Virus record (IMG/VR): IMGVR_UViG_2737471841_000003
DNA length: 15,937 nt
Reading direction: 5' to 3' (one strand)
DNA from: a virus
Taxonomy: Duplodnaviria > Heunggongvirae > Uroviricota > Caudoviricetes
Shown: one piece after another, positions 2,464-15,937 of the stretch
How the letters are laid out: the number at the start of each line of letters is the position of its first letter
Position numbering within the stretch: the first letter of the stretch is position 1
Notes under the pieces: model-generated
What the model saw: only the letters and a program-made list of their open reading frames with translations
Told to the model about the DNA's origin: nothing
The model's database searches: none
Position numbers and translations under genes: made by a program

Positions 2464-2539
2464 GGTGTACCTCCTATTGCACTGGCTACGCCAGGTAGCC
2501 ACAGCTACCCCGCAGGGTGTTACCGCCGTTAACGTCCAT

Positions 2540-2568: not shown

Positions 2569-2900
2569 TAGCAGTCTTTTTGATGCCGTGATGGTGGTAT
2601 ATAAGCCTGTGGCATCAATTAATAGGTTTTTCTGATTGTCTTGCAGATCAGCTTTATCAGGTATCTGTTTATGTTCCGGTACGATGAGACCGTGCGGGCA
2701 TCTCTTAGTTTTGGCTTATAACTTATGTGCCTGGTAAGAGAGCAGAACCACCATCAATCGCCTGTTTATCGCCTTGGTTAGGGCAGGGCCGCATCAAGCC
2801 CAGTGATCTGTAAGGTACTCCACACCATATACGCTTCTTTTCTCGTAGAGGTCGCGTTAACCTCTGGGGTGTGTTTCCATTCGACAGGATAGCATGATCA

Positions 2901-3728: not shown

Positions 3729-3743
3729 TTTCCCCTTGCCTTG

Positions 3744-3905
3744 TCAGATAATGCCATAGTGTTTCAATGTTTCAATCAACCCATTACGTTTCAGGAAAGT
3801 TCGCACAGCCTCACGCGTAACTCCGGCTTTTCTGGCTATTTCCGAAAGGTTGATAAAATCAGTGTCTGTGTTTTCAATAACAACACGTTTGTTAATCAAT
3901 TTCAT
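3744..3905 (-). CDS. 53-aa helix-turn-helix DNA-binding protein (MKLINKRVVIENTDTDFINLSEIARKAGVTREAVRTFLKRNGLIETLKHYGII); absent from the ORF track (below its length cutoff)
   Basis: Translated codon by codon from the reverse strand: ATG at 3905-3903, SD AAGGAG (complement of 3914-3919) at 8-nt spacing, TGA at 3746-3744. The segment LSEIARKAGVTREAVRTFL is a typical HTH (excisionase/MerR-like or Nu1-like). Confidence 0.5.
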   Translation of the reverse strand: MKLINKRVVIENTDTDFINLSEIARKAGVTREAVRTFLKRNGLIETLKHYGII

Positions 3906-3940
3906 AAAATAAGCTCCTTGAAGAATACAGGTAAAAGGAT

Positions 3941-3978
3941 AATAAAAAAGGGAGGGAGGTTGTTAGCCTCTCCTCCCT
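3941..3978 (-). terminator. Intrinsic terminator or stabilising hairpin just downstream of the major capsid gene
   Basis: On the - strand: GGGAGGAGAGG, loop CTAACAA, CCTCCCTCCC, then CTTTTTTATT. It begins about 20 nt after the capsid stop at 3996. Phages commonly place a strong hairpin after the capsid gene. Confidence 0.5.
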
Positions 3979-3995
3979 TGTATTTAGCTATCAGA

Positions 3996-5024: not shown

Positions 5025-5036
5025 TCCATCCCCCTA

Positions 5037-5360
5037 TTAAAGTGCTAATTTGACATGTTCGTTTAACAGGTGGGGAATAGCTTCCGGAGGATTAATTCCG
5101 AAAGAATTTAATACCACACCGATCCCGTGAACAATAACTAATTTGTCGCCTTTTTTAGCTGGTTCCAATACCACAAATAAAGCAGGCATCTCTTCTTCGT
5201 CAGCGTCGAATTTTGCCCCTTCTGCGGTAATAACATCGCCAGGGAATAAATCCTCAGTTAATGCCGTTTTCAGTTCCAGAGCTTTTTGTTCAAACTCGGG
5301 GTCCATGGAATAGGCGACCACATCTGCACGTGTTTTACGCGGCTTATCAGAAAATAACAT
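5037..5360 (-). CDS. Putative head decoration protein (107 aa), lambda gpD-like by position and size
   Basis: ATG at 5360 with GAGGT SD. Its stop is 12 nt upstream of the capsid gene start. 107 aa vs 110 aa for lambda D. Sequence similarity to gpD was not confidently recognised; the call is positional. Confidence 0.45.
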   Translation of the reverse strand: MLFSDKPRKTRADVVAYSMDPEFEQKALELKTALTEDLFPGDVITAEGAKFDADEEEMPALFVVLEPAKKGDKLVIVHGIGVVLNSFGINPPEAIPHLLNEHVKLAL

Positions 5361-5429
5361 CGTGTTACCTCATCTCTATCGCATTTATCAGATTTAATGT
5401 ATTAGAATCTCACCTCTGATACATTAATA

Positions 5430-5460
5430 AAGGCCACCCCTTCAGGTTGGGTAGCCTTGA
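5430..5460 (-). terminator. Terminator-like hairpin upstream of the head genes (- strand)
   Basis: On the - strand: GGCTACCC, loop AACCTGAA, GGGTGGCC (8-bp stem with one G.U), then TTTATTAATG. It lies about 70 nt upstream of the start at 5360. Confidence 0.3.
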
Positions 5461-5913
5461 TAATGGACCAGGTGCATAATCCAGAGCACGAAGATTATTC
5501 TCTGGTCATTCGTCTGTCGAGGTGATTTAAATGTGAAGTGAATCAGGCATTACTGCCTCAATCCATATAATAAAACCTCCCCCTAGCCCAGAGAGAGGCC
5601 TTATTATTTACTAGGATATATGAATGACTGATTTCAGTCTGGCAGATTCGCTAATAGCTCACCGCCTGGCACTTATTATCGCCTTCATTAGATCACCACA
5701 AATAATGTCGGCTATGGGAGAATGTAACCCGCTCCCAGTTGTTCACAGTACAACCAGACTTTTTACTGGAGAAAGTAATATCCACTCGTATAAATATTAC
5801 CTTCTTTAAAGGCCCTCGCTACGGTGGAAAGAAGAGGTAGCACAGAACAACCAGCAAAGACCTTTAAAGAAGTACGCCCAGCATCAAGGGGAAAATGATG
5901 AAAAAGCTCTGAG

Positions 5914-5942
5914 CTTCCGGGCGTTGACAAGTACAGGAGAAC
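5914..5942 (+). promoter_or_regulatory. Near-consensus sigma70 promoter (TTGACA, 17-bp spacer, TATTAT; TG immediately upstream of the -10)
   Basis: TTGACA at 5914-5919, TATTAT at 5937-5942, TG at 5935-5936. Confidence 0.45.
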
Positions 5943-6018
5943 ACTGTATTATCCAATAATCGGTGAGATGTAGGTGAGATAACTCGAAAGGTGTAACCAT
6001 GAAAGTATCTACATCATA

Positions 6019-6038
6019 GTATTATGATAACATAATAC
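6019..6038. promoter_or_regulatory. Inverted repeat (GTATTATG ATAA CATAATAC), candidate operator or RNA hairpin in the leader
   Basis: 8-bp arms separated by 4 bp, downstream of the 5914 promoter and followed 16 nt later by a T7 run (6055-6061). Confidence 0.3.
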
Positions 6039-6095
6039 TTGCCGTTTGTCAATCCTTTTTTCAAAGAAATTTAAAAAATTTTTCTCTCCGCCTCT

Positions 6096-6142
6096 TTTCT
6101 CGATCAAACAATTGAAAAAACTATTGACTGAGGCGTTAGAAT
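6096..6142 (+). promoter_or_regulatory. Promoter for the homing-endonuclease-like gene: 13-bp upstream box TTTCTCGATCAAA, then -35 TTGAAA and -10 TAGAAT (19-bp spacer)
   Basis: The box at 6096-6108 is identical to 14751-14763, which sits in the same position relative to the consensus promoter at 14768. -35 at 6112-6117, -10 at 6137-6142. The spacer is longer than optimal. Confidence 0.35.
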
Positions 6143-6182
6143 GTGATACGGTTCACCACAAATGGTAAGTGGAGGGTGCGAT

Positions 6183-7013
6183 ATGAAAGAGAGAAAACAG
6201 GCTTTAGCTAAAACAACAGAGCAGTTCATCGCTGAGGCAAGGAAAGTGCATGGTGATAAGTACGATTATTCGAAAGTTGAATACGTGAATATGCGCACTG
6301 AGGTTTGTATCATTTGCCCAATACATGGGGAGTTCACACAAAGACCAGAGAACCATCTTCGCGGTAACAGAGGAAAGGGGTGTGGTTGCCCTATTTGTAA
6401 ACCTTGGAGAAAACGCCTGACACGAGAAGAGTTCGAAAGGAGGGTAAAAGAGGTACACGGTGATAACCTGGATGTTTCACAGTTCGATTATAAAAACGTT
6501 CACACAGAGGGTATTGTTAAGTGCAACAGGTGCGGCATGACGTTCTCGATACAGGCACAAGCGATTATCCTTAGAAATTCTGATGGTAGTCTTCTAGGCG
6601 GTTGCCCTGTGTGTGACCATCTACACAGAGACGCGGAATATGTTTATTTGGCGCTGGATGATCCACACTTTCCGACGAGATTTAAGATCGGGGTAACAAG
6701 CAACCCACAGGACAGATTGATAACTTTGAAGTGTAGAACACCTTTCAGGGTGTTTATGAAATGTTGTTTCAAAGTAGGAAAAGTGAAGGCGCGGAGGCTG
6801 GAGTACTTCCTGCACAACTTCTACAACTTCTGCAATTGTGGTTATGAATCAAGAAAGGACTTTCAGGGTGCAACAGAGTGGTTTTATTACCTGCAAAGTA
6901 AAGTAGGGGTGAAGAGGGTGCTCAAGATGTTAGTAAAACTGGTAAACGCCAGGAGCTACAACCGCCACTACATAAAGCATAAAAAGCCAACGTTTAAACG
7001 CACTTTGTTTTAA
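6183..7013 (+). CDS. Homing-endonuclease-like protein: two N-terminal Zn-ribbon repeats plus a C-terminal T5orf172 (GIY-YIG-like) domain
   Basis: Start moved to ATG 6183 (GGAGGG SD at 6171-6176); the track start at 6162 lacks an SD. Two tandem repeats of HGDKYDYSKVEY...C.ICP.HGEF.Q.P..HL.G.GC..C, then YVYLALDDPHFPTRFKIGVTSNPQDRL...EYFLH...ATEWFYY, which matches the T5orf172 pattern as I remember it. Confidence 0.65.
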   Translation: MKERKQALAKTTEQFIAEARKVHGDKYDYSKVEYVNMRTEVCIICPIHGEFTQRPENHLRGNRGKGCGCPICKPWRKRLTREEFERRVKEVHGDNLDVSQFDYKNVHTEGIVKCNRCGMTFSIQAQAIILRNSDGSLLGGCPVCDHLHRDAEYVYLALDDPHFPTRFKIGVTSNPQDRLITLKCRTPFRVFMKCCFKVGKVKARRLEYFLHNFYNFCNCGYESRKDFQGATEWFYYLQSKVGVKRVLKMLVKLVNARSYNRHYIKHKKPTFKRTLF

Positions 7014-7064
7014 TGGTGGGCCAGGGATGGTTATTGACTCTCAATCATTATTTTAAAAAAGATG

Positions 7065-7093
7065 TTGACTACCACACGGTAAAAGTGTATAAA
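7065..7093 (+). promoter_or_regulatory. Near-consensus sigma70 promoter (TTGACT, 17-bp spacer, TATAAA)
   Basis: TTGACT at 7065-7070, TATAAA at 7088-7093, about 40 nt upstream of the 7131 ORF. Confidence 0.5.
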
Positions 7094-7130
7094 GGGCCTA
7101 AAGAAAGAGAAGTGGCAAAGGAGGTAAAAA

Positions 7131-7250
7131 ATGTTCAGGCTGATGGTGAATGTCCTGGCGATAATCTTCGGGTTAGTGCTCTTTCTGATGGCCTGGAGCG
7201 TTATCTTTGAAGTAGTGGATATAGTGATGGCGATGTTAATGATTAAATAA
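7131..7250 (+). CDS. 39-aa hydrophobic single-TM peptide (MFRLMVNVLAIIFGLVLFLMAWSVIFEVVDIVMAMLMIK); not in the ORF track
   Basis: ATG at 7131 preceded by AGGAGG (7119-7124) at 6-nt spacing and by the 7065 promoter. TAA at 7248-7250. The overlapping track ORF 7013..7210 in another frame has no SD and covers the promoter. Confidence 0.4.
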   Translation: MFRLMVNVLAIIFGLVLFLMAWSVIFEVVDIVMAMLMIK

Positions 7251-7266
7251 CGCAGGAGGCAAGATC

Positions 7267-7329
7267 ATGAAACATTGGGAAGTGATTGCACTGTTCATCA
7301 TAATGTTTGTGATGTGCATCGAGTTTTAA
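7267..7329 (+). CDS. 20-aa hydrophobic peptide (MKHWEVIALFIIMFVMCIEF); not in the ORF track
   Basis: ATG at 7267 preceded by AGGAGG (7254-7259) at 7-nt spacing. TAA at 7327-7329. It is very short, so this is tentative. Confidence 0.3.
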   Translation: MKHWEVIALFIIMFVMCIEF

Positions 7330-7364
7330 CATTAGTCGATCAATATATTGAAGAGGTGACTACT

Positions 7365-7916
7365 ATGAAAACTATCAAAACTATCGCCGCTGTGGTCCTG
7401 GCAATGTTTGTGGGCAATGCTAATGCCGCCCTGGTGATCACAGACCAAGACATTGAAGACCACATGGAGACAATGGAGGTTTACTACCAGGCTGAGGATA
7501 TTGATTGTGAGATCTGGAGCAAGATGTTCACGAAAGGGGTAATTGAAGGTAACGACAAGTTCAGGCACGGTATCCGTGTTCACAAAGACCTCACAATTGT
7601 TGCCATGAAAGCTAAATCGGAGTTCTACAACAAATACGCAGGGGAGGTTGTCAAATCTGGCGCAAGTAAAGGATACAGCAAGGAGAGAGTAGATCAGATT
7701 AGAGATGTTTACATCGGTGCTTACATCGGTGCGGCCGAGATGAAATCTCGCGTAAACAGCAAGTTCGGCAAAGCCGCTGATCTTAACTCTGTAGCTAAAA
7801 AGAGAGCAGAAGCCGATCATTGGTTCAATTTCTGTGTGAAAGTGAAAGAAGAATATCCGGTCGTATTGTTCAACGAGTGGTTAGCTATAGCACAGCTGGC
7901 AGAAGATGATTTTTAA
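7365..7916 (+). CDS. Secreted (periplasmic) protein with Sec signal peptide, 183 aa
   Basis: Start moved to ATG 7365 (GAGGTG SD at 7353-7358). N-terminus MKTIKTIAAVVLAMFVGNANA/AL has n-, h- and c-regions with a predicted cleavage after ANA. There is no Cys at +1, so it is not a lipoprotein. The track start at 7275 lacks an SD. Confidence 0.6.
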   Translation: MKTIKTIAAVVLAMFVGNANAALVITDQDIEDHMETMEVYYQAEDIDCEIWSKMFTKGVIEGNDKFRHGIRVHKDLTIVAMKAKSEFYNKYAGEVVKSGASKGYSKERVDQIRDVYIGAYIGAAEMKSRVNSKFGKAADLNSVAKKRAEADHWFNFCVKVKEEYPVVLFNEWLAIAQLAEDDF

Positions 7917-7946
7917 CCGGGGACGATCATCGACTCAAAAAAGTGA

Positions 7947-7975
7947 TTGACAACGGAGGTGAGATCCGGTATAGT
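7947..7975 (+). promoter_or_regulatory. Near-consensus sigma70 promoter (TTGACA, 17-bp spacer, TATAGT)
   Basis: TTGACA at 7947-7952, TATAGT at 7970-7975, upstream of the 8011 gene. Confidence 0.5.
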
Positions 7976-8010
7976 TCACCACATAGAGAAGAGATACGGA
8001 GGGCAGCAAG

Positions 8011-8391
8011 ATGAAAACTTTCAATTGGGTTAAACCACAGATGTTACGTCGCGCCAATAACCACGGTGAGGGTGTACGCCACCACAACGACGCACCTGCA
8101 CCGGACATGAAGAAGGCACGCAAAGTGATCAATCTTCGTCAGGACGCGGCTATCGCTCGCAACCTGAAAGCAGAAGCGAAAAACCGTAACCCGTTGGAGG
8201 CAATTCTTGTTGCCCTGGTCAATGACCATGCAGCTCATTTCCGTCATTTCAATGGCATCAACCAGTACCAGATGGCAGAAGCCAACCGTAAAGAAGAAGA
8301 GCGGATCCTGGCTGGACTGGTACACGTTGAGATTGAACCTGAACCGGAACCGGAGGAAATTCATTGGGACCTCTGGAAAATGGCAGCTTAG
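8011..8391 (+). CDS. Hypothetical early protein (126 aa)
   Basis: ATG at 8011 with GGAGGG SD at 7998-8003. Contains a PEPEPE stretch. Function unknown. Confidence 0.6.
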   Translation: MKTFNWVKPQMLRRANNHGEGVRHHNDAPAPDMKKARKVINLRQDAAIARNLKAEAKNRNPLEAILVALVNDHAAHFRHFNGINQYQMAEANRKEEERILAGLVHVEIEPEPEPEEIHWDLWKMAA

Positions 8392-8452
8392 TCCACAGAG
8401 TGGATTTCACAGAGTGAAACCTGATAACAGGCAGCTTGAGGAGGCTTGAATC

Positions 8453-8917
8453 ATGAAAATTTTCAGTATTGAACATTACGAAGACAAAATTGAAGAGCTG
8501 GAAAGACTGGCTGAGATTGCAGATTATCGCGCGGGGTACGCCGCTGGACTTGCGGAAGTTCGGGAAAAAATACTTAAAAAATTCCACAGCTTGTACTATG
8601 TCCTGGCGGTTGCTGAGCAAGAACAAGATGAGGAGCTGTACGAGTACACGTCGTGCCGTATCCTGGAAATGGCGGGTGTGTACGGCATAATCAAGGCGGG
8701 AGAGGTGATCTCAGACGAAGAGATTGCGAAGAGACTTCGTAAACGCATCGAAAACGCATACTTTGAAGCGATCTACTATACGAAAAAAAGCACGGAGCTG
8801 TATAAACGCATAACTGCGGCGACGAAAGTTGTCACTCAGCTACAGAAAGTAAAAATCTTCAAACTGAAAGCGGCGTTGGCTATCGGTAAAATGTTTTTCC
8901 CACATCGTTTCAATTGA
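8453..8917 (+). CDS. Hypothetical early protein (154 aa)
   Basis: ATG at 8453 with GAGGAGG SD. Function unknown. Confidence 0.65.
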   Translation: MKIFSIEHYEDKIEELERLAEIADYRAGYAAGLAEVREKILKKFHSLYYVLAVAEQEQDEELYEYTSCRILEMAGVYGIIKAGEVISDEEIAKRLRKRIENAYFEAIYYTKKSTELYKRITAATKVVTQLQKVKIFKLKAALAIGKMFFPHRFN

Positions 8918-8945
8918 TTAAATAATAAACAGAGGAGACTGTAAA

Positions 8946-9314
8946 ATGAGTTACGAAAACTGCTGTTTCTGTGTGGAAGATGTGCCGCCAGTCATTCTGG
9001 AGCGTCACGGTGTGAAAACGTATCTGCCGATGATTCTGATGTTCGAGCATTTCCTCGATCATGGTGATGACGGTTTTTATGTCGGTTATAGTGAGGACGA
9101 TTTCCCTCCTGACTTGCTGAAAGAGTTGGAAGAAAAAGGCATCATTGAAGTATTTGATCAAACTGACGTGGATAATGGTGTGTGGGTAAGGGTTAAAAAA
9201 GAGATTCACATTGAACGTCTGCAACTTGCGGCAGAAGTCCAGGGCCTTGAGATTCTCGACATGAGCGACTACCTCAAACAACTGGACGAAGCATACAAGG
9301 CGCACGATTTATAG
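8946..9314 (+). CDS. Hypothetical acidic early protein (122 aa)
   Basis: ATG at 8946 with AGAGGAG SD. Tightly spaced after the preceding gene. D/E-rich. Confidence 0.65.
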   Translation: MSYENCCFCVEDVPPVILERHGVKTYLPMILMFEHFLDHGDDGFYVGYSEDDFPPDLLKELEEKGIIEVFDQTDVDNGVWVRVKKEIHIERLQLAAEVQGLEILDMSDYLKQLDEAYKAHDL

Positions 9315-9327
9315 GGGAGACACACAG

Positions 9328-9642
9328 ATGAATAAAGACGTGATTGAACTGCTGGAACAACTGAACAAGGCCGCTGAGTATATCCTGGCCGATGTGAAGG
9401 TCCTGGATGGTCACTTGTTGCTGGCGAGCAAGTCAGCCACACAGGAAGGAAGGGACAGGGCTGTCGAGCTATACGTTCAGGATGCTGCACATCTTATAAA
9501 CAAATGGTTGCCTGATGTGGGTGTCGAGGTGACAAACTACGCAGAAGCAACGGCGGCGCATATGGTGCTGATGCATCTGGCAATTGATAGTTACCGTAGT
9601 AACATGTTAGCAATGCTGGACTTCATGAAGGCTAAAAATTAA
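9328..9642 (+). CDS. Hypothetical early protein (104 aa)
   Basis: ATG at 9328 with GGGGAG SD, 14 nt after the preceding stop. Confidence 0.6.
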   Translation: MNKDVIELLEQLNKAAEYILADVKVLDGHLLLASKSATQEGRDRAVELYVQDAAHLINKWLPDVGVEVTNYAEATAAHMVLMHLAIDSYRSNMLAMLDFMKAKN

Positions 9643-9704
9643 TCGTACTCGATCAATAGTTCAATTTTACTTATGAATTGTGGAGAGCATAAGAGGTTCC
9701 AACA

Positions 9705-10226
9705 ATGAAAACTGAACTCAAACATGAAATTCTAAACGCTTTTAACAACCGTATCGAGGCCATAGTGGATGGTCAACCTGGCGGGATGTTCTTTGTGGAG
9801 GAAGCCATAGAGCTGGCTAAAGCGGAGGAAGCAGTAGAGAGAATACTCAACATCCCACACAGTGATCAATGTCTGGTAGATAGGTATCTATACGGCTTCA
9901 TGCGACTGGTCCGGCATTATTGCGAGGTGCCTGTGGACCATCATTTTATCAGTATGATCTACGCCGATGCTTCTGACTTCTTCTACAGGCTAGATCACAG
10001 AATAGACGAAATGATTGTTGTGTTACTGGCGGGATCTGATGACGAAAGGTTGTTAGACGTAGAACCTGATGAACTGGTGAAAAAACTTATTGAGCGTGTT
10101 TATCGGGAAATGGAGGCAGACGTAGAGGCAGCGGGTGAAGATGGAAGAATGCGGCAGAAGCTGGAGGCCGCGTATAAGGCCAGGCCGAAGGATGATGATG
10201 ACGATACGGAAGGAATCCCATTCTGA
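9705..10226 (+). CDS. Acidic early protein (173 aa) with an SSB-like C-terminal tail (...KDDDDDTEGIPF)
   Basis: ATG at 9705 with AAGAGG SD. Strongly acidic overall. The C-terminal codons were checked directly: GAC GAT ACG GAA GGA ATC CCA TTC TGA. Confidence 0.65.
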   Translation: MKTELKHEILNAFNNRIEAIVDGQPGGMFFVEEAIELAKAEEAVERILNIPHSDQCLVDRYLYGFMRLVRHYCEVPVDHHFISMIYADASDFFYRLDHRIDEMIVVLLAGSDDERLLDVEPDELVKKLIERVYREMEADVEAAGEDGRMRQKLEAAYKARPKDDDDDTEGIPF

Positions 10227-10277
10227 GCTATTGGGGCCGTCACTGGCCCCGCTTACCAACTAATCGGAGAGCATAAG

Positions 10278-10553
10278 ATGAAACTCAAACTTATCGAAAG
10301 TCAGCTGAACATGTTCTTTAAGATGGCAAGTGTGATCATTGTGGACGGTGAACAATTCGCGGGTCCAGTGCCACACAGTAGCATCGTTTTAGATATCAAC
10401 AGAGAGGCCCTTAAATGCGTTGTGGAGGCCGTATTTAATCAGGATGTAAAAGTGTATAGGCTTATGGAGTTTGAGCTACAGGAGCGCGATTTACGCATCA
10501 TAGAGCGACATTTGAAGGCTGAGCAAGCCGCAGAAGAGTTGAACCTGGATTAA
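10278..10553 (+). CDS. Hypothetical early protein (91 aa)
   Basis: ATG at 10278 with GGAGAG SD. Confidence 0.6.
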   Translation: MKLKLIESQLNMFFKMASVIIVDGEQFAGPVPHSSIVLDINREALKCVVEAVFNQDVKVYRLMEFELQERDLRIIERHLKAEQAAEELNLD

Positions 10554-10662
10554 GGGGGTGTATACCCCGAACATTGTGAGAGGTGTGAGATGGCTAAACA
10601 AATACTTTCAATTGTTCCACTGTGGAAACTGAATCATAAATTCGTAAAAAAATGGTAAACCA

Positions 10663-11013
10663 GTGCTGTTTACATACCTTGATGCGCTGGTCTTCGGTTA
10701 CATAGCACGAGCTAACTATGGGGGCAAGTGGTTCAACTTCGTAATGAAGAATGCAATCTACGACCTCTATACAAGCGAGAAGGAGATAACGCACAGCGTT
10801 GAAAAACTGGTTATGTTAAGACTTATCAAAATAATGCCGGGTGAAAGTTTGCCTAACTGCCACATGGTGGCGCAAGTCACTCATAAGGAATTGGAAGACA
10901 CGATCAATAGGTATATCGAGCGTGAAAGAATGTCTTGCGCGATGATCGACCTTGATGAAGAGAGGAGGAAACAATTCCAGGGTAATGATGAATGGGAAGA
11001 TTGTCCTTTTTAA
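10663..11013 (+). CDS. Hypothetical protein (116 aa from a GTG start; start uncertain), C-terminus ...NDEWEDCPF
   Basis: The ORF is open from 10648. The first start codon is GTG at 10663 with no clear SD; an alternative ATG at 10744 has a weak SD. It is preceded by a 22-codon uORF (10590-10658, SD GAGAGGTG) that ends in an A7 run. Confidence 0.45.
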   Translation: MLFTYLDALVFGYIARANYGGKWFNFVMKNAIYDLYTSEKEITHSVEKLVMLRLIKIMPGESLPNCHMVAQVTHKELEDTINRYIERERMSCAMIDLDEERRKQFQGNDEWEDCPF

Positions 11014-11030
11014 TGTAGGGGGGTGGCAAA

Positions 11031-12008
11031 ATGACTACAGAAGTGATGATCCAGATTTTCGAATCTGATTTAAATAATGATGGTAACTTAGTCCCGGTTG
11101 TTAACGCCCGTGAGTTTTACGAAGCGCTTGGGATGCGAAAAGATTATGGAAATTGGATCAGGTGGCATCTTCGGAAATTTGAAAAAAATCGGGACTTTAT
11201 TACTTTTATCGATAAGTCGGGAGAACATCCGCGTCATAACTATTTTATCACTTTGGACACTGCAAAGCACATATGCAGGGTGAGCCAACGCCAGGAAGGT
11301 GAGCAGTTGCTACAGTATTTAATTAAAGTTGAAAAAAGATACCGTTTAGTACTGGACCCACAACCACAGATTCCTGTTTACACACAGTCACAGATTCCTG
11401 TTTACACACAGTCACAGATTCCTGTTTACACACAGACGGAACCTGAACCGTTGCCAGGAACACCGGAACATTTTGCCCGTGCATTTACGGAGGCTTACCA
11501 ACAGATATACGGGGCAACAGATCAGCAGCCAGTCATTGAGCACAATACGGAACCTGTGGTTCCTTGTTGGGGAGCTGGGTCTAATCAGAGCCTCGAGGTC
11601 CAGGATGTGCAGGAAGTACGACCGCCAGCACCTGTGCTGGGGTATTACAATCCTTGCCCGGACAACAAAATCAACATGAAAGGCTTAAAAGAATACCTGA
11701 GCAATGAACGCCTGATCAAGTACCTCATTAAAAAATTCAACATTGAAAATGAGATTTATGATTATGGTTACATAAATGTGAAAGGGAAAGCTGAGTCGGA
11801 GATTGTGTACGATAAACGTAAAACGCTGGCGATCTTACATGCCGCTTACGCTTTGAGTACTAGAGTAAACGCCACACAGAGAGAGTTTATGGGGATAGTA
11901 TTCACGATGTACAGGGTGTTAAGAGACACACATTATGATAAGGACATGTACGATACAGCTTACACTCTTCTTGAAGAGGATATAAACAAATTGTATAAAA
12001 TTGATTGA
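11031..12008 (+). CDS. Antirepressor-like protein with N-terminal AntA-type domain (325 aa)
   Basis: ATG at 11031 with a G-rich SD. The N-terminus (VVNAREFYEALGMRKDYGNWIRWHLRKFEKNRDFITF...YFITLDTAKHI) matches the AntA/AntB antirepressor N-terminal pattern as I remember it. Contains a triplicated QIPVYTQS repeat. Confidence 0.65.
   Translation: MTTEVMIQIFESDLNNDGNLVPVVNAREFYEALGMRKDYGNWIRWHLRKFEKNRDFITFIDKSGEHPRHNYFITLDTAKHICRVSQRQEGEQLLQYLIKVEKRYRLVLDPQPQIPVYTQSQIPVYTQSQIPVYTQTEPEPLPGTPEHFARAFTEAYQQIYGATDQQPVIEHNTEPVVPCWGAGSNQSLEVQDVQEVRPPAPVLGYYNPCPDNKINMKGLKEYLSNERLIKYLIKKFNIENEIYDYGYINVKGKAESEIVYDKRKTLAILHAAYALSTRVNATQREFMGIVFTMYRVLRDTHYDKDMYDTAYTLLEEDINKLYKID
11367..11438 (+). repeat. 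Three tandem 24-bp direct repeats (CAGATTCCTGTTTACACACAGTCA) inside the antirepressor-like gene
   Basis: Units at 11367-11390, 11391-11414 and 11415-11438; the third differs in its last bases. In frame, encoding QIPVYTQS x3. Confidence 0.9.
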
Positions 12009-12086
12009 GCATCTATACTCGATCACAACTCAACAATAAAGACGGAGAGTCGAGAGCATGACTCTCCTCAACCCCGGAGGCCCAAC

Positions 12087-12362
12087 ATGTATTACTACGA
12101 TTGCAAAGACCCGATTCTGGCTGAACGTAACCGCCTGGCTAATGAGATCGCCCAACAGGCAAAAGAGAAAAAAGCCCAACAGCGTATGGAGCTTGGAAAA
12201 GAGATTTACAGACTCCACACAGACGGCTACACAATGGAATGTATAGCCAAAAAGCTGGGAATGTCTGAACCAACAGCCTACAGACTGCAACGGGCATATC
12301 TGAAAGCTAACCCGCACCTCAAAGTGTTCTCGGGGCGTGTTGCGGCACGGGGTCGTAGTTAA
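12087..12362 (+). CDS. Small HTH DNA-binding protein (91 aa), resolvase/sigma-region-4-like HTH
   Basis: ATG at 12087 with GGAGG SD (12076-12080). The segment GYTMECIAKKLGMSEPTAYRLQRAY is HTH-like. Its stop lies 10 nt before the first operator-like palindrome. Confidence 0.6.
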   Translation: MYYYDCKDPILAERNRLANEIAQQAKEKKAQQRMELGKEIYRLHTDGYTMECIAKKLGMSEPTAYRLQRAYLKANPHLKVFSGRVAARGRS

Positions 12363-12371
12363 CACACACTA

Positions 12372-12408
12372 GGGACAAAATGTCCTACCTACCCGGGACA
12401 AAATGTCC
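12372..12408. promoter_or_regulatory. Two copies of a 14-bp palindromic operator-like site, GGGACAAAATGTCC, 23 bp centre to centre
   Basis: Exact copies at 12372-12385 and 12395-12408. Each is a dyad (GGACA-N3-TGTCC). Confidence 0.5.
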
Positions 12409-12409
12409 A

Positions 12410-12419
12410 CCCCCCCCCC
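12410..12419. repeat. Homopolymeric C10 tract
   Basis: Ten consecutive C at 12410-12419, directly after the second operator copy. Confidence 0.9.
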
Positions 12420-12449
12420 GGCAATATGTGATTCCCGGAAGACACATGT

Positions 12450-12486
12450 TTGTACAAATTGTAGTCACTGATTGTACAGATTGTAG
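12450..12486. repeat. Two direct repeats TTGTACA(A/G)ATTGTAG spaced 22 bp
   Basis: 12450-12464 and 12472-12486. Each has a TGTACA palindromic core. Confidence 0.6.
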
Positions 12487-12490
12487 CACT

Positions 12491-12573
12491 ATACCGGTTT
12501 TCCGATAGAGCTATACCGGATTTCCGGTAGAGGTATACCGCTTTTCCGGTATAGGTATACCGGATTTCCGGTA
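12491..12573. repeat. Iteron array: four 17-bp dyad-symmetric sites (ATACCGG-N-TTTCCGGTA) at exactly 22-bp spacing; putative replication origin or partition/regulator binding array
   Basis: Sites at 12491-12507, 12513-12529, 12535-12551 and 12557-12573. Arms TACCGGA and TCCGGTA are reverse complements. Followed by an AT-rich stretch (12574-12622), the same layout as the lambda origin (four dyad iterons plus an AT-rich region). Confidence 0.6.
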
Positions 12574-12622
12574 ACTATTAGATCAATCTATTACATCAAG
12601 AAAAAAGATCACTTATTATATT

Positions 12623-12645
12623 AAGGGCCTTGCCCTTTTTGTTGT
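12623..12645 (+). terminator. Terminator-like hairpin (AAGGGC, loop CTT, GCCCTT, then TTTGTTG)
   Basis: 6-bp GC-rich stem with a 3-nt loop, then a T-run, at the end of the AT-rich region. It would terminate read-through from the 12087 gene across the iterons. Confidence 0.35.
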
Positions 12646-13845
12646 GGGATTGATTGGTGGGATTGATCTTACTGATAGTATAATACTCCACCAATCAACC
12701 CTAAGTTGTGGGAGAGTACGGAGCAGACTGCGACTACAGAGCAGGCTGAGAAGTACTCAATGGGTGTAAGGGATTAAGGGACCCACACACATTTCCACAC
12801 ACAGAGTAAAGCCAGAGGCTTTATGAAGTGTAAGAGTAATGCCTAAAGAGTCGAAGCACACTTTAGGCTATATTGTGTGGGAGGTATCTGTACATAGTAC
12901 AGAGTACTCCCCATTATGTGGGGGCAATCCTGCCCGTAAGGGCAGCTCATGTGATTCGCAGCCGTAAGCTGAACTGCGACGAAGAAGGCTGCAAAGGTTC
13001 TCGGCCCGGTTACAATTACGCAACAATTTTATAATCTATCGTTAACCTATACCACTATCACAATTTCTATAGTTGAGTCCTACTATCCCCTACACCATAA
13101 AATCAATTTTAAGCCACACTCAGCCTACGGCTTCACGGTAAAACGTGTTTTAACCCACATAATGGCCCCTGTAGTGAGCTAAATGGTATACACCGCTATA
13201 ATTGGGTTACTTATGAGATAACCTCGTTAGAATCGATTCTAGAGCGTTTTAGAGCTTGAAATCCATCCTGCAAACTGCAAGATGATGATTCTATCGGGGA
13301 AGAATTTTTTTCCTTCCCGTAAGTCGTACCGTAGAGCAGATTTGCTTTACGAGCTTTCTCACACCTCAGGCCTCTGGCCTTCATGGAGTATCGGAGATAC
13401 GACTCACCGCATATACTCTGTTTTCAGTGCTACCCTGATCGCATCCGACCCTTTTCAGAGGCACTTTTAACCGCATTCTGGCACGCTACAACAGCAAGAA
13501 ATAGGCTGATTCTACTGATTTTACCTTACAATACAGGTACATAGCAGAAGGGCAGGAATATACTGTGAGAATGGTTGCTAGACCGGGCCTTCTTCTCTCT
13601 GTGTGTGCATTCTGAAACCGTTATGTAGTCGAGTATATAACGACTGGTCAGACCAGTGCAGGGCTGAAAATGATGATCGGTCACCACAATTATGGGCAAA
13701 TTACTGTACATTCATACAGTAGTTATACATAAAGAATATGCATCGATTGCTCTTTAGGCACAGATGTTATAATGTAACAATTAATTTAGTTTACCTCGGT
13801 AATCACTGTGTGGACATGTCACGCAACTAAACTAAATCCGAAGAG

Positions 13846-13854
13846 TTATCCACA
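13846..13854 (+). promoter_or_regulatory. Consensus DnaA box TTATCCACA
   Basis: Exact 9-mer match to the R-type DnaA box, single copy. Nearby are an 8-bp palindrome GACATGTC (13812-13819) and a 10-bp inverted repeat, ATTTAGTTTA (13783-13792) with TAAACTAAAT (13827-13836). Confidence 0.3.
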
Positions 13855-14687
13855 GATTGGGGGTAAATCATCAACATAGTCTGTAGCCTCTGACAGAGAG
13901 CAAAAAGAAAGGCCTTTTATGTGATCAATATCACGTTTCTGGGGTAGTTCTGGAGGCTTAGGTGCGGGGAAGTAGTGCGTACTGACACCAGAGGCCGCAT
14001 AAAACAAGGGGATTTAACATAATGGATCTTGTATACACCACACCTCACCACGTTGAAATCTGATCTTACTTTGAGGCTATCTGCCAACAGAATCCGCGTA
14101 CATGCACCATAACCTGTATGTGGGATGCAATAATAAAGGCCCTGGCGGCCCACAGGCCGCATGAATACTGGGCTTGTCATAGATATGGGCCTGTATCGCT
14201 ATGTAGATGCGGGATGACCTGTAAGGGTGTGGCAGGTGGCAGGGGCTGGAGGGCACGGTACAGCACAGCTAATGGGTGAGGCCCCAGATATTTGAGAATC
14301 ACTCTCACCTGAGAATAATTATCAGTAACTCCTGCCTAGTACCACCCCTGTAGGTAAGGTTGATCATTGCCCACATTGCTGGTATACTTTATCTGTGGGA
14401 AAGTAACGCCGTTACTTCCGCGAACGCTGTGCGTGATGTGTGGGAGAATGTGCCTGCGTAATAAAAAAATTGAAAATTACTCATCTGTCAACATTTCAAT
14501 GACGTATGTCAATCATTTATGCTATGTGTTTACTTTATAATCAATCACTTACGAATTTAATGAAATAAATGCATTTAAATAGGGTGAAACTCAAATCTAA
14601 CCCCTGAAACTGTGTTGATAAAGGGGCGTGAAGCCCGGCGTAGGTAACTCGTTACCCGCCAGTGTTATTGATAATTCTCATTTACGT

Positions 14688-14716
14688 TTGACAATGCAAT
14701 CCCAATGGTGTATAAT
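14688..14716 (+). promoter_or_regulatory. Perfect consensus sigma70 promoter (TTGACA, 17-bp spacer, TATAAT)
   Basis: TTGACA at 14688-14693 and TATAAT at 14711-14716, in an AT-rich upstream context. Confidence 0.6.
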
Positions 14717-14750
14717 AGACTATAAGGGGTAAGATAGAATCTTTACTCAA

Positions 14751-14796
14751 TTTCTCGATCAAAGGTATTGACAAATGAGAGTAAAGGTGTTATACT
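14751..14796 (+). promoter_or_regulatory. Second tandem near-consensus promoter (13-bp box TTTCTCGATCAAA, then TTGACA, 17-bp spacer, TATACT)
   Basis: Box at 14751-14763, -35 at 14768-14773, -10 at 14791-14796. It lies 80 bp downstream of the 14688 promoter. Confidence 0.6.
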
Positions 14797-14885
14797 TATC
14801 TATAACAGCAAAACTCTACTTTAGAGCCGCTCCATGAGGAGCAAAGCTCCGAAGTGTGATCATAGTCGGTAAATCCCTTACTTAC

Positions 14886-14918
14886 CGGGGGCACTTCTCC
14901 AGCCCCCTCTCTTTTTAA
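14886..14918 (+). terminator. Intrinsic terminator in the leader (GGGGGC, 9-nt loop, GCCCCC, then TCTCTTTTTAA)
   Basis: Stem 14887-14892 pairs with 14902-14907, followed by a T-run at 14908-14916. It is about 110 nt downstream of the predicted start site and about 50 nt upstream of the 14969 start. Confidence 0.5.
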
Positions 14919-14968
14919 CGGTATGGTAAGAAAACATTCTTTATAAGTGATAAAAGAGGTAGTTAATC

Positions 14969-15208
14969 ATGGCTAAACCTTATTCAAATAGCTTTAACAT
15001 TGAAACAATGAGAGCTGATCAGATTGTAGACATGGTGAGGAACCAGGAACTTTCAGAGGAGACGCTCTACATGTTCATCTATCGCACGAAGAACCGTTAC
15101 CCGGAGGTAGATAAGGCATGGAAGGAGATCAAGCGCCTCAAAAAAGAGTTCAAGAAAGAAGCTGAATTGTACTGGCGCAAACGGTTTTTCTATAACTACA
15201 AAGGCTAA
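14969..15208 (+). CDS. Hypothetical basic protein (79 aa)
   Basis: ATG at 14969 with AGAGGT SD. K/R-rich C-terminal half. Confidence 0.6.
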   Translation: MAKPYSNSFNIETMRADQIVDMVRNQELSEETLYMFIYRTKNRYPEVDKAWKEIKRLKKEFKKEAELYWRKRFFYNYKG

Positions 15209-15240
15209 TCGGTAGAGATAACAAAGATAAAGGTGGAAAC

Positions 15241-15756
15241 ATGAGAGCAGTTTTTGATCAGCTGCCGTGGTGGCTTGATTTTCTCGAAGAACTGGACGGA
15301 AAGAAATTTAAACTGACAAAAGGTGAAGCGAGAGCATTTGCTTGTATTCTTACGTATGCCGCGACATGTGGTAAGATTTTCCCGTCACTCCACACAATAG
15401 CCCTTCATATGGGTTTACGGAGTGAAAAACGAGCGCCGACACAGGCGCATAAAGCGATCAAAGGCCTGGAGGAAAAAGGCCTTATACGTGTTAGCCGTCG
15501 CGCTGGGTGTGGAAACCATTATGAACTAGTTTACACAGCAGATCAACTCTTTGAGATGACAAAGCAACAGAATCCAGACTTGTTCAAAGGCTATGAAGAC
15601 ACGTTCGGAGAAGAGGATAGGGAGAGAGAACAGGCAGGGGATAAACCGAAGAAACATGATACAAAACAGGGGGTTACGTGTCAACATGACAACGGTCAAC
15701 CGGATGATATTCACATAGAAGCGTGTGATCTGGATGCTACTGACATACCATTTTAA
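15241..15756 (+). CDS. HTH_36-type winged-helix DNA-binding protein (phage replication/regulatory type), 171 aa, with SSB-like C-terminus (...DLDATDIPF)
   Basis: ATG at 15241 with AAGGTGG SD. The segment LTKGEARAFACILTYAATCGKIFPSLHTIALHMGLRSEKRAPTQAHKAIKGLEEKGLIRVSRR matches the HTH_36 pattern seen in the N-terminal domains of phage replication proteins. The terminal codons GAC ATA CCA TTT TAA were checked. Confidence 0.7.
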   Translation: MRAVFDQLPWWLDFLEELDGKKFKLTKGEARAFACILTYAATCGKIFPSLHTIALHMGLRSEKRAPTQAHKAIKGLEEKGLIRVSRRAGCGNHYELVYTADQLFEMTKQQNPDLFKGYEDTFGEEDREREQAGDKPKKHDTKQGVTCQHDNGQPDDIHIEACDLDATDIPF

Positions 15757-15824
15757 CATAAATCACAGCTCCGCATGAAGCTACGCTGAATAAATCACAC
15801 TGTATTAACAATGAGGTAACAAAA

Positions 15825-15937
15825 ATGAGTTTAGTTGAAAGATTGAAAAAAATCCTCGCCACAGAAGAGGTAGAGGAAGAGGAAGAAGTAGAGAAGGCGG
15901 CGGATCCTAAGCCTGAGAAGGCTGTGAATACCCAGAG
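15825..15937 (+). CDS. 5' end of a downstream gene (partial; MSLVERLKKILATEEVEEEEEVEKAADPKPEKAVNTQ...)
   Basis: ATG at 15825 with GAGGT SD (15813-15817). The ORF is open to the window end. Confidence 0.5.
   Translation, partial: MSLVERLKKILATEEVEEEEEVEKAADPKPEKAVNTQ

What the first reader, a model, noticed from the sequence alone, without database searches (positions are those of the whole stretch)
12372..12645. Lambda-ori-like module: operator pair, C10 tract, two TGTACA repeats, four phased dyad iterons, an AT-rich region and a terminator
Four 17-bp sites (A TACCGGA N(2) TCCGGTA) recur at exactly 22-bp intervals (12491, 12513, 12535, 12557), which puts them on the same face of the helix, and are followed by about 50 bp of AT-rich DNA. 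This is the classic iteron plus unwinding-element layout of lambdoid and plasmid origins. Upstream are two exact GGGACAAAATGTCC palindromes (23 bp apart) and two TTGTACA(A/G)ATTGTAG repeats (22 bp apart). That makes three distinct site families in 270 bp, all just downstream of a small HTH protein gene whose transcript would run through them to a hairpin and T-run at 12623-12645. Unlike lambda, where the iterons lie inside the O gene, this array is intergenic and the candidate initiator (the HTH_36 protein at 15241) is 2.7 kb away.
Basis: partly seen in the sequence, partly recalled or inferred. Interest (0 to 1): 0.65.

Follow-up and report, generated by a model that had tools for sequence, protein, structure and literature searches.

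The report
Probable replication origin of satellite plasmid
A 280-bp gene-free stretch of a 15.9-kb circular, phage-related E. coli element has four evenly spaced protein-binding repeats next to the easiest-to-melt DNA in the element and is swapped in relatives together with a distant DNA-binding gene, so it is most likely a replication origin: an ordinary device in an undescribed element.

Summary
The window is a whole 15.9-kb circular E. coli element with a few capsid and tail genes. It is probably a plasmid-like satellite of rV5-type phages.

Comparison with relatives shows that 12363-12645 is a discrete, swappable cassette. Flanks are 86-100% identical, while the cassette is replaced by unrelated repeat arrays. 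Cassette type tracks the protein in the slot at 15241: 171/175 aa with TACCG-N6-CGGTA dyads, an unrelated 382-aa protein with other repeats, and a 305-aa HTH_36 protein with direct iterons plus a DnaA box.

Between the two dyad-type elements the half-sites are invariant and the 6-bp spacer is free. The least stable 40-mer of the whole element lies 1-14 bp from the array in four elements, representing three independent array types. This supports an iteron plus unwinding-element origin with a lambda-like layout.

Not supported:
- The 91-aa HTH protein as the binder. It stays 91-97% identical across cassette types.
- The HTH_36 label, which is below threshold.

A 116-aa protein co-varies too. Nothing has been tested experimentally.

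The more unusual features lie outside the finding. They are a ~2-kb structured noncoding region between origin and initiator, and SSB-tail-like C-termini on four proteins.

The parts
12087..12362 (+). Last gene of the rightward operon: a 91-aa HTH_23 protein. It is context only, and probably not the binder of the cassette sites.
   Evidence: Pfam HTH_23, E = 2.9e-6. It is 96.7%, 93.3% and 91.2% identical in L017, L019 and L012, although L017 and L012 carry an unrelated cassette.
12363..12645 (.). The swappable cassette as a whole (here called 'type A'): the proposed origin of replication.
   Evidence: Window versus L017, identity per 50 nt: 86-98% up to 12350, 42-56% (random level) across 12351-12650, and 100% from 12651. 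The three- and two-way alignments give the same boundaries.
12372..12408 (.). Two exact GGGACAAAATGTCC palindromes (12372-12385 and 12395-12408). They are accessory sites with an unknown binder.
   Evidence: L019 has one degenerate copy, AGGACAAAATGACC. Types B and C have none.
12410..12419 (.). C10 homopolymer. It is probably incidental.
   Evidence: Present in the window and in the identical Logan assembly. Absent from the type-A relative L019.
12450..12486 (+). Two direct repeats TTGTACA(A/G)ATTGTAG, 22 bp apart. They form a second site family.
   Evidence: L019 carries 2 copies of AACTATGTTCAATTTGACC at the same position. L020 carries 5 copies of AACTATGTTCA spaced 32/22/23/22 bp as its only array.
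12490..12573 (.). Four dyad iterons TATACCG-N6-CGGTA at exactly 22-bp intervals. These are the proposed initiator-dimer binding sites.
   Evidence: L019 has 5 copies with the same outer half-sites but a different spacer, CGGGTG against GATTTC.
12574..12622 (.). AT-rich tract, the proposed DNA unwinding element. It holds two GATC-initiated 13-mers: GATCAATCTATTA (12581-12593) and GATCACTTATTAT (12607-12619).
   Evidence: It contains the least stable 40-mer of the whole element. The tract and both GATC sites are conserved in L019. The same adjacency is seen in L019, L020 and L018.
12623..12645 (+). G+C-rich hairpin AAGGGC-CTT-GCCCTT plus a T-run. It marks the boundary of the AT tract and is a possible terminator of the upstream operon.
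   Evidence: Terminator scan. Identical in L019. L018 has an analogous G+C hairpin, GGGCCGCGATAGTCGGCCC, after its AT tract.
12647..12701 (+). Invariant inverted repeat GGGATTGATTGGTGG / CCACCAATCAACCC with TATAAT (12679-12684) in the 27-nt loop. It is the first conserved element after the cassette. It may be a promoter/operator or the 5' hairpin of the noncoding transcript.
   Evidence: I10. Invariant in five relatives.
12643..14680 (+). About 2 kb without genes, lying between the cassette and the promoters of the initiator operon. It is a mosaic of conserved, hairpin-rich islands.
   Evidence: No gene was called in two assemblies. Stems are preserved through swaps and one compensatory change. 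Folding z-scores are -4.8 and -6.8. There is no Rfam match.
14688..14796 (+). Two consensus sigma-70 promoters (TTGACA-17-TATAAT and TTGACA-17-TATACT) for the operon 79 aa - initiator - 72 aa - tape measure.
   Evidence: 12/12 and 11/12 matches. 100% identical between the window and L017 despite different initiators.
15241..15756 (+). 171-aa protein in the 'initiator slot': an N-terminal winged helix, a disordered acidic tail, and the C-terminus ...DLDATDIPF. It is the proposed cognate initiator.
   Evidence: PHROG replication-initiator families at E = 3e-5 to 4e-4. AF2 model with a winged helix at residues 10-110. MarR/LexA-type structural matches. Slot occupancy co-varies with cassette type.
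10663..11013 (+). 116-aa protein ending ...EWEDCPF. It is present only in elements with the type-A cassette and is an alternative or additional binder.
   Evidence: The homologue in L019 is 73-77% identical. There is none in L017, L012 or L020.

Best explanation
Region 12363-12645 is most likely the vegetative or plasmid origin of replication of a ~15.9-kb circular E. coli element.

Proposed mechanism:
1. Dimers of a cassette-specific winged-helix protein bind the four TACCG-N6-CGGTA dyads. The most likely binder is the 171-aa product of 15241-15756. The half-sites are 11 bp apart centre to centre, and the sites are 22 bp apart.
2. The resulting nucleoprotein array strains the adjoining AT-rich tract (12574-12622), which is bounded by a G+C hairpin, and opens it.
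3. Host replication proteins are then recruited. This may occur through the acidic ...DIPF tail, which resembles the C-terminus of E. coli SSB.
4. The two smaller site families upstream would bind accessory or control factors.

What is shown: the repeats, their phasing, the cassette boundaries, the co-variation with the initiator slot, the half-site conservation and the stability minimum.

What is inferred: which protein binds, that the tract melts, and that replication starts here.
For: (1) Four phased dyads are far beyond chance. They are the only intergenic tandem array in the element.

(2) The cassette has sharp boundaries. It shows random-level identity inside 86-100% identical flanks.

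(3) There is a one-to-one correspondence between cassette type and initiator-slot protein in the four elements where both are visible:
- window: type A with a 171-aa protein;
- L019: type A with a 175-aa protein, 83% identical;
- L017: type B with an unrelated 382-aa protein;
- L020: direct AACTATGTTCA iterons with a 305-aa HTH_36 protein.
Meanwhile the flanking 79-aa and HTH proteins are 100% and 96.7% identical between the window and L017.

(4) All three slot proteins independently give weak-to-moderate hits to phage replication-initiator families. The 171-aa protein hits phrog_270, 8102 and 391 at 3e-5 to 4e-4. The 382-aa protein hits phrog_678 'O-like' at 2.7e-4. The 305-aa protein hits HTH_36 at 26.8 bits, above its cut-off of 25, and DnaD_N at 1.7e-3.

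(5) Between the window and L019 the outer half-sites TATACCG / CGGTA are invariant in all copies (bar one base in the window's first copy), while the 6-bp spacer is GATTTC-like in one and CGGGTG-like in the other. This is the pattern expected of dimer contact sites. The winged-helix region of the protein is nearly invariant.

(6) The least stable 40-mer of the entire element lies 12, 14, 1 and 6 bp from the array in the window, L019, L020 and the 20.7-kb plasmid L018. That covers three independent array types. My rough estimate of the chance of this per element is about 1%.

(7) L020 has a perfect DnaA box, TGTGGATAA, beside its AT tract.

(8) The layout matches ori-lambda: four iterons that are each an imperfect inverted repeat, followed by an AT-rich tract (PMC7466680).

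(9) The element is circular and is found as whole ~14-16-kb contigs, so it needs its own origin.
Against: - There is no experimental evidence of any kind.
- The initiator assignment rests on sub-threshold similarity. Pfam HTH_36 scores 13.9 bits against a cut-off of 25. The fold is a generic MarR/LexA-type winged helix, equally typical of transcription factors. The domain is an orphan, with only its own cluster among 1.84 billion representatives.
- Co-variation rests on only four elements.
- A 116-aa protein and a weakly conserved 183-aa protein also occur only with type A.
- Type B cassettes (L017, L012) do not have the stability minimum next to their repeats.
- There is no DnaA box within the window's cassette. 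The single perfect box, at 13846, lies in a non-conserved stretch.
- The origin would lie 2.6 kb from its initiator gene, which is unusual.
- A second AT-rich block (14462-14590), highly conserved across initiator types, is a competing location for an origin.
Confidence: 0.6

Rival explanations
1. The cassette is a transcriptional control or copy-control locus, not the origin itself. On this reading the arrays are operator or activator sites for a cassette-specific winged-helix regulator. That regulator would govern the promoter-like element at 12647-12701 and the long noncoding transcript that starts there. Replication would start elsewhere, for example at the conserved AT-rich block 14462-14590 next to the initiator operon.
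For: - In every relative the array sits immediately upstream of the invariant TATAAT-bearing inverted repeat and the structured noncoding region.
- The 171-aa protein's fold is closest to MarR/LexA-type repressors that bind palindromes as dimers.
- Region 14462-14590 is 94-96% conserved, is the third least stable stretch, and holds an IHF consensus at 14539.
- The window's cassette has no DnaA box.
Against: - Four to five phased sites followed by the single least stable duplex of the element, in three independent array types, is an origin signature rather than an operator signature.
- The three slot proteins hit replication-initiator families, not repressor families.
- Block 14462-14590 carries no sites that change with the initiator type. 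It lies directly upstream of two consensus promoters, which by itself explains its conservation.
Confidence: 0.2
2. The cassette is a packaging recognition site (pac/cosB-like). On this reading the repeats are bound by a small-terminase-like HTH protein so that the element's DNA is loaded into helper-phage capsids.
For: - The element has capsid and tail genes but no recognisable terminase or portal, so it must be packaged by a helper.
- Small terminases are short proteins with an N-terminal HTH and bind repeats near their gene. This is my own knowledge of lambda Nu1/cosB.
- The 171-aa gene lies just upstream of the structural genes.
Against: - None of the candidate proteins hits a terminase family in Pfam or PHROGs.
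- The adjacent HTH protein does not co-vary with the cassette.
- A packaging site that must suit a helper's terminase would be expected to be conserved among close relatives. Instead it is the most variable segment.
- The link to the stability minimum has no role in packaging.
Confidence: 0.07
3. The cassette is a partition (centromere) site or a site-specific recombination site (res/attP). It would be bound by a centromere-binding protein, or by a recombinase with accessory factors.
For: - Phased dyad repeats also occur in plasmid centromeres (my own knowledge of sopC and parC).
- The 91-aa HTH gives a very weak hit to a ParB-like PHROG at E = 3.5e-3.
- Relatives encode small serine recombinases, and L018 encodes a tyrosine recombinase.
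Against: - No ParA/ParM-type ATPase is present, and no ORF is large enough to be one.
- The window has no recombinase at all, yet has the full array.
- L017 and L019 share a 93.6% identical resolvase but have different cassettes.
- The cassette is far from the resolvase gene.
Confidence: 0.05

Closest known systems
ori-lambda of lambdoid phages (O protein / iterons)
   Same: Both have four iterons that are each an imperfect inverted repeat bound by a dimeric initiator. An AT-rich tract where unwinding occurs follows directly, and then a G+C-rich or palindromic element (PMC7466680; the palindrome is from my own knowledge). Weak PHROG similarity to 'replication initiation O-like' families is seen.
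   Different: - The array is intergenic, not inside the initiator gene.
- The initiator gene is 2.6 kb away, across a structured noncoding region.
- The protein does not reach any Pfam threshold and is an orphan.
- No P-like helicase loader was found.
- Spacing is exactly 22 bp, and the half-sites are TACCG.
Iteron-type theta origins of plasmids (RK2 oriV, P1, F, pPS10, R6K)
   Same: Both have a ~22-bp iteron period, an adjacent AT-rich region with 13-mer-like GATC motifs, then a G+C-rich stretch. Origin and Rep act as a specificity pair. These points are from my own knowledge of those origins; the features in the window are. The element occurs as a free circle.
   Different: - Those iterons are asymmetric and bound by Rep monomers with two winged-helix domains (Rep_3/TrfA/Pi). 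Here the sites are dyads and the protein has one winged helix.
- There is no Rep_3 match.
- There are no DnaA boxes in the window's cassette.
- There is no autoregulatory site at the rep promoter.
Origins of phage satellites (SaPI/PICI ori with Rep iterons; PLE ori with RepA)
   Same: In both, a small helper-dependent element carries its own initiator and an iteron-containing origin whose specificity is swapped between lineages. This is from my own knowledge. The host element here looks like a satellite: it has few virion genes, and its Dit-like protein is 49% identical to the tail-tube initiator of rV5-like phages.
   Different: - SaPI Rep is a helicase fused to the origin-binding domain, and the ori lies directly after the gene.
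- PLE RepA belongs to the RepA_N family.
- None of these families matches here.
- The element carries no integrase and appears to be extrachromosomal.
E. coli oriC 13-mer unwinding element
   Same: GATCACTTATTAT (12607-12619) matches the oriC right 13-mer GATCTCTTATTAG at 11 of 13 positions. A second GATC-initiated 13-mer lies 26 bp upstream. The oriC sequence is quoted from memory, so this is a lead, not a test.
   Different: There are only two copies, they are not tandem, and there are no flanking DnaA boxes in the window.

Membership tests
Lambda-type origin (ori-lambda / O protein) | Four or more iterons, each an ~18-19-bp imperfect inverted repeat | tested here: met
   Four 18-bp TATACCG-N6-CGGTA dyads. 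The lambda definition is from PMC7466680.
Lambda-type origin (ori-lambda / O protein) | AT-rich unwinding tract directly flanking the iterons | tested here: met
   12574-12622. It contains the global stability minimum of the element.
Lambda-type origin (ori-lambda / O protein) | Origin located inside the initiator gene | tested here: not met
   The array is intergenic, and the candidate initiator starts 2.6 kb downstream.
Lambda-type origin (ori-lambda / O protein) | Initiator belongs to the O family and is paired with a P-like helicase loader | tested here: not met
   There is no Pfam hit at threshold, and PHROG 'O-like' reaches only E = 4.3e-4. No loader-like protein is found among the ORFs.
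Iteron-type plasmid origin (Rep_3/TrfA/Pi class) | Tandem Rep-binding repeats with ~22-bp phasing | tested here: met
   The period is exactly 22 bp.
Iteron-type plasmid origin (Rep_3/TrfA/Pi class) | Rep protein with tandem winged-helix domains of a known Rep family | tested here: not met
   The model has a single winged helix. There is no Rep-family hit and no PDB sequence match.
Iteron-type plasmid origin (Rep_3/TrfA/Pi class) | DnaA box(es) beside the iterons or AT-rich region | tested here: not met
   There is none in 12363-12645. The only TTWTNCACA match in the window is at 13846. The feature is met in the distant relative L020.
Iteron-type plasmid origin (Rep_3/TrfA/Pi class) | Origin and initiator form a specificity pair | tested here: met
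   Cassette type and slot protein correspond one-to-one in four elements. The sample is small.
Any replication origin | Supports autonomous, initiator-dependent replication; initiation maps to the site | not testable with these tools
   This needs cloning, 2D gels or marker-frequency analysis.
Plasmid partition centromere | Cognate NTPase (ParA/ParM/TubZ) and centromere-binding protein encoded alongside | tested here: not met
   No such protein is found in Pfam or PHROG scans of the ORFs.
Packaging site (pac/cosB) | Adjacent or cognate small terminase; conserved among elements using one helper | tested here: not met
   There is no terminase hit. The segment is the most variable one among close relatives.

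The most novel reading that the evidence does not exclude
The cassette is one half of a split replication module in an undescribed family of ~15-20-kb plasmid-like satellites of virulent rV5-type coliphages. On this reading:
- Interchangeable dyad-iteron origins are coupled, across a ~2-kb structured noncoding RNA that starts at the origin's edge, to orphan winged-helix initiators.
- The SSB-like ...D-IPF tails of those initiators recruit the host primosome or polymerase directly, without DnaA or a helicase loader.
- The RNA takes part in initiation or copy control.
Probability: 0.2. Interest if true: 0.75.

Novelty: new variant of a known kind. Interest (0 to 1): 0.5.

Why it matters
If this is the origin, it gives a handle on how an uncharacterised family of small circular E. 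coli/Shigella elements maintains itself. These elements are seen in isolate drafts and gut metagenomes but are absent from RefSeq complete E. coli genomes, PLSDB and the phage collection. The closest thing found was one distant cousin plasmid.

It also offers a clean natural experiment in origin/initiator specificity. Nearly identical backbones carry at least two non-homologous origin cassettes matched to non-homologous initiators.

The origin architecture itself is textbook. The value lies in three things:
- the unusual physical separation from the initiator;
- the dyad (lambda-like) sites in a plasmid-like context;
- the neighbouring features, namely a large structured noncoding region and SSB-tail-like termini, which could make the initiation mechanism testable.

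Tried and rejected
- Nucleotide and protein searches of the phage collection with the region, the noncoding stretch and the HTH protein found nothing. The major capsid protein also found nothing.
- RefSeq complete E. coli genomes gave no match. PLSDB gave only a 100-nt AntA fragment.
- Exact-pattern scans for one iteron in viral contigs gave three unrelated single-copy hits, L001-L003. Scans for the conserved noncoding motif in viral and JGI metagenome contigs gave nothing.
- A two-iteron pattern gave only unrelated actinobacterial and metagenomic hits in genome and metagenome contigs, and none in viral contigs. The hits lacked the array and the conserved hairpin.
- Protein-pattern scans of viral contigs with the HTH and the 171-aa protein found nothing.
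- Rfam gave no match at gathering threshold or at E <= 1. No tRNAs were found.
- A PDB sequence search with the initiator profile gave nothing meaningful.
- An exhaustive search of representatives with the winged-helix domain found only its own cluster.
- Single-sequence AF2 of the 116-aa protein was unusable, with pLDDT 39.5. hhalign between it and the 171-aa family showed no relation.
- The HTH protein as binder was rejected because it does not co-vary.
- An attP/res reading was rejected because the window has no recombinase and the cassette does not follow resolvase identity.
- RNA folding z-scores could not decide the strand of the noncoding region, since both strands are significant.
Full report
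**1. The observation**

- Four 18-bp units TATACCG-N6-CGGTA start at 12490, 12512, 12534 and 12556, exactly 22 bp apart. The first copy has a degenerate right arm.
- With three mismatches allowed, the window has five matches against 0.00 expected in 200 dinucleotide shuffles.
- The bare core TACCGNNNNNNCGGTA occurs four times here, against 0.17 expected for the whole window.
- Two exact GGGACAAAATGTCC palindromes lie at 12372 and 12395. A C10 run lies at 12410-12419. Two TTGTACA(A/G)ATTGTAG repeats lie at 12450 and 12472. All are confirmed.
- The AT-rich tract 12574-12622 contains the least stable 40-mer of the whole 15.9 kb. Its nearest-neighbour energy is -40.5 kcal/mol, against a mean of -52.5 with sd 3.85.
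- A short G+C hairpin followed by a T-run sits at 12623-12645.
- No other intergenic tandem array exists in the window.

**2. What the window is**

The window is a complete contig, JUDJ01000049.1 of GCA_000798295.1. An independent Logan assembly is identical over 10.3 kb, is circularly permuted, and reads straight across the window's ends. The molecule is therefore circular or terminally redundant.

The proteins are annotated by NCBI as E. coli or Shigella sonnei. Relatives occur as whole contigs of 14.1-15.9 kb.

Gene content:
- a tape-measure protein, a Dit-like protein, a lambda-E-type capsid protein and an AntA protein;
- a T5orf172 endonuclease and about ten small proteins of unknown function;
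- no portal, terminase, integrase or partition ATPase.

The Dit-like protein is 49% identical to the 'tail tube initiator' of rV5-like myoviruses such as FFH2 and FV3. I read the element as a plasmid-like satellite of such phages. That is an inference.

The element is absent from the phage collection, from RefSeq complete E. coli genomes and from PLSDB, apart from an AntA fragment.

**3. The region is a discrete, swappable cassette**

Relatives were obtained through the HTH, 171-aa and tape-measure proteins.

Against L017, a 15,187-bp E. coli contig, identity per 50 nt runs as follows:
- 86-98% up to 12350;
- 42-56% across 12351-12650, which is random level;
- 100% from 12651.

L012, L014 and L017 carry in this place a different set of repeats, AACATCCCTCYTAAGGGAGGTAT and TAACCTCTAGAGGGAGGTAT, which I call 'type B'.

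L019 carries a 'type A' cassette like the window's. It has five TATACCG-N6-CGGTA dyads, four of them at 22-bp spacing. The AT-rich tract with both GATC sites and the same hairpin follow.

In the window-L019 alignment the outer half-sites are invariant apart from one base in the window's first copy, whereas the 6-bp spacer is GATTTC-like in one element and CGGGTG-like in the other. Contact positions are conserved and the spacer is free, which is what a site for a symmetric dimer should look like.

**4. Which protein goes with the cassette**

An all-against-all comparison shows that the window and L017 share almost all proteins at 89-100% identity. The 79-aa protein is 100% identical and the 91-aa HTH is 96.7% identical.

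The gene following the 79-aa gene differs completely:
- The window has a 171-aa protein.
- L017 has an unrelated 382-aa protein.
- L019, which is type A, has a 175-aa protein 83% identical to the window's.
- L020 is a distant relative (tape measure 42% identical, capsid 29%). It has a 305-aa protein that passes the Pfam HTH_36 threshold and is 31% identical to the window's protein over 111 residues.

L020's cassette consists of five direct AACTATGTTCA repeats spaced 32/22/23/22 bp. An AT-rich tract and a perfect DnaA box follow.

Cassette type and 'initiator slot' therefore correspond one-to-one in the four elements where both can be seen, although the two loci are about 2.6 kb apart.

Each of the three slot proteins gives weak to moderate hits to phage replication-initiator families.

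The AF2 model of the 171-aa protein has pLDDT around 80 over residues 10-110. It shows a winged helix followed by a disordered acidic tail. Its best structural matches are MarR/LexA-type dimeric DNA binders and generic phage 'HTH' proteins, a few of them named replication proteins.

Caveats:
- The Pfam HTH_36 hit of the window's protein is below threshold.
- The domain is an orphan among 1.84 billion representatives.
- A 116-aa protein (10663-11013) and, weakly, a 183-aa protein also occur only with type A.
- The 91-aa HTH protein next to the cassette does not co-vary. It is therefore unlikely to bind these sites.

**5. The unwinding element**

I ranked all 40-mers by duplex stability in each element. 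The single least stable one lies at the following distance from the repeat array:

| Element | Distance to array |
|---|---|
| window | 12 bp |
| L019 | 14 bp |
| L020 | 1 bp |
| L018 | 6 bp |

L018 is the complete 20.7-kb E. coli plasmid pRHB39-C22_4. It is a distant cousin that shares only the Dit-like and AntA proteins. It nevertheless has five GTATCAAnTTGATAC dyads with a 22-bp period, an AT tract, a G+C hairpin and then 1.4 kb of noncoding DNA.

That makes three independent array types with the same arrangement. Type B is the exception, since it has no stability minimum beside its repeats.

The window's tract also holds two GATC-initiated 13-mers. One of them resembles the right 13-mer of oriC at 11 of 13 positions. 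The oriC sequence is from memory, so this is only a lead.

**6. Interpretation**

The best explanation is an iteron-plus-unwinding-element origin with a cassette-specific initiator.

The layout is that of ori-lambda: four iterons that are each an imperfect inverted repeat, then the AT-rich tract (PMC7466680). The 22-bp phasing and the succession of AT tract and G+C element are those of iteron plasmids (my own knowledge).

It fails membership of both families on the protein side and on location. It is not inside the initiator gene. It has no O/P pair and no Rep_3-type protein. There is no DnaA box in the window's cassette.

The main rival is a regulatory or copy-control array for the promoter-like inverted repeat at 12647-12701 and the noncoding region behind it, with the origin lying elsewhere. 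I give this 0.2.

Packaging, partition and recombination sites are unlikely, for the reasons listed under the rival explanations.

**7. What lies beyond the finding**

From 12643 to about 14680 there is no gene in either assembly.

- The stretch is a mosaic of islands 84-100% identical to L017, separated by unalignable segments.
- In five relatives the first 400 nt keep their stems through whole-hairpin swaps: AAAGCCAGAGGCTTT, GGAGCTTTGCTCC and AGAGCTGGAAGCTCT.
- There is one compensatory change (GCAGCC...GGCTGC to GCTGCC...GGCAGC).
- Extra hairpins are inserted inside a conserved loop.
- Several G-U pairs fall on the + strand.
- Folding z-scores are -4.8 on the + strand and -6.8 on the - strand.
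- Rfam has nothing, even at E <= 1.

This looks like a large structured RNA, or a set of DNA hairpins, that starts at the edge of the origin.

Four proteins of the family end in an acidic stretch plus (I/V/C)PF, like the C-terminal tail of E. coli SSB. They are the 171-aa, 173-aa and 116-aa proteins of the window and the 382-aa protein of L017. In some homologues one residue follows the Phe, or Leu replaces it.

**8. Verdict**

The origin reading is the best-supported one at 0.6, but it rests on comparative evidence only.

The device is a new variant of a known kind, sitting in an undescribed element. Interest is moderate for the finding itself and higher for its surroundings.

Noticed in passing
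window 12643-14680 (+); L017 4276-5980; L019 12243-12937; L020 14420-14901 and 545-800; L018 16856-18250: About 2 kb without any called gene lies between the cassette and the initiator operon. It is a mosaic of highly conserved, hairpin-rich islands. Stems are preserved through hairpin swaps, with one compensatory pair, hairpin insertions in loops, and TGTGGG motifs clustered on the + strand. There is no Rfam match, even at E <= 1. It is possibly a large structured RNA.
   Followed up: partly
window 15241-15756, 9705-10226, 10663-11013 (also 7365-7916); L017 6530-7678; L019 10067-10537 and 11083-11526; L018 20120-20395: Several unrelated small proteins end in an acidic run plus (I/V/C/S)PF: ...DLDATDIPF, ...DDDDDTEGIPF, ...EWEDCPF, ...WDDNVPF. 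These resemble the C-terminal tail of E. coli SSB (...DDDIPF), which docks PriA, DnaG, chi and others. In some homologues an extra residue follows the Phe.
   Followed up: partly
whole window, 1-15937: The window is a complete circular element. A permuted Logan contig reads across its ends. Relatives are 14-16-kb contigs from E. coli and Shigella. It has tape-measure, Dit-like and capsid genes but no portal, terminase or integrase. The Dit-like protein is 49% identical to the tail-tube initiator of rV5-like phages. This suggests a plasmid-like satellite, and I found no description of one in the literature I searched.
   Followed up: partly
window 12647-12701: An invariant inverted repeat, GGGATTGATTGGTGG / CCACCAATCAACCC, gives three GGGWTTGAT sites around a TATAAT at 12679-12684. 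It is conserved in all close relatives regardless of cassette type, as is the 91-aa HTH protein. It may be that protein's operator or promoter.
   Followed up: no
window 14834-14858 (+) and 13360-13384 (-); L020 13930-13954, 14150-14174, 14604-14628; L019 12476-12500: A 25-nt module, ATGA-[5-bp stem, 3-nt loop]-(Y)GA-NN-TGTG, recurs in both orientations in noncoding DNA. The copy ATGAGGAGCAAAGCTCCGAAGTGTG is identical in the window and in the distant relative L020, and it is an insertion relative to L009 and L010. It may be a small mobile or recombinogenic hairpin.
   Followed up: partly
window 14462-14590: This AT-rich block is 94-96% identical across relatives with different initiators. It holds TGTCAAC/TGTCAAT repeats and an IHF consensus at 14539, and it is the third least stable stretch of the element. 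It lies just upstream of two consensus promoters (14688-14716 and 14768-14796).
   Followed up: partly
window 13846-13854: The only perfect DnaA box (TTATCCACA) in the element lies in a stretch that is not conserved in relatives.
   Followed up: partly
L018 (CP057043.1) 18245-18400: A complete 20.7-kb E. coli plasmid, only distantly related, has the same architecture: five GTATCAAnTTGATAC dyads with a 22-bp period, an AT tract that is the plasmid's stability minimum, a G+C hairpin, and then 1.4 kb of noncoding DNA.
   Followed up: partly
window 6183-7013 versus L017 14023-14589, L019 7000-7566, L012 5940-6584: The first gene of the rightward operon is a T5orf172/DUF723 endonuclease in the window but a small serine recombinase (resolvase) in relatives. 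This is another cassette swap.
   Followed up: no
window 11365-11435: A perfect 24-nt x 3 tandem repeat lies inside the AntA gene and encodes QIPVYTQS three times.
   Followed up: no
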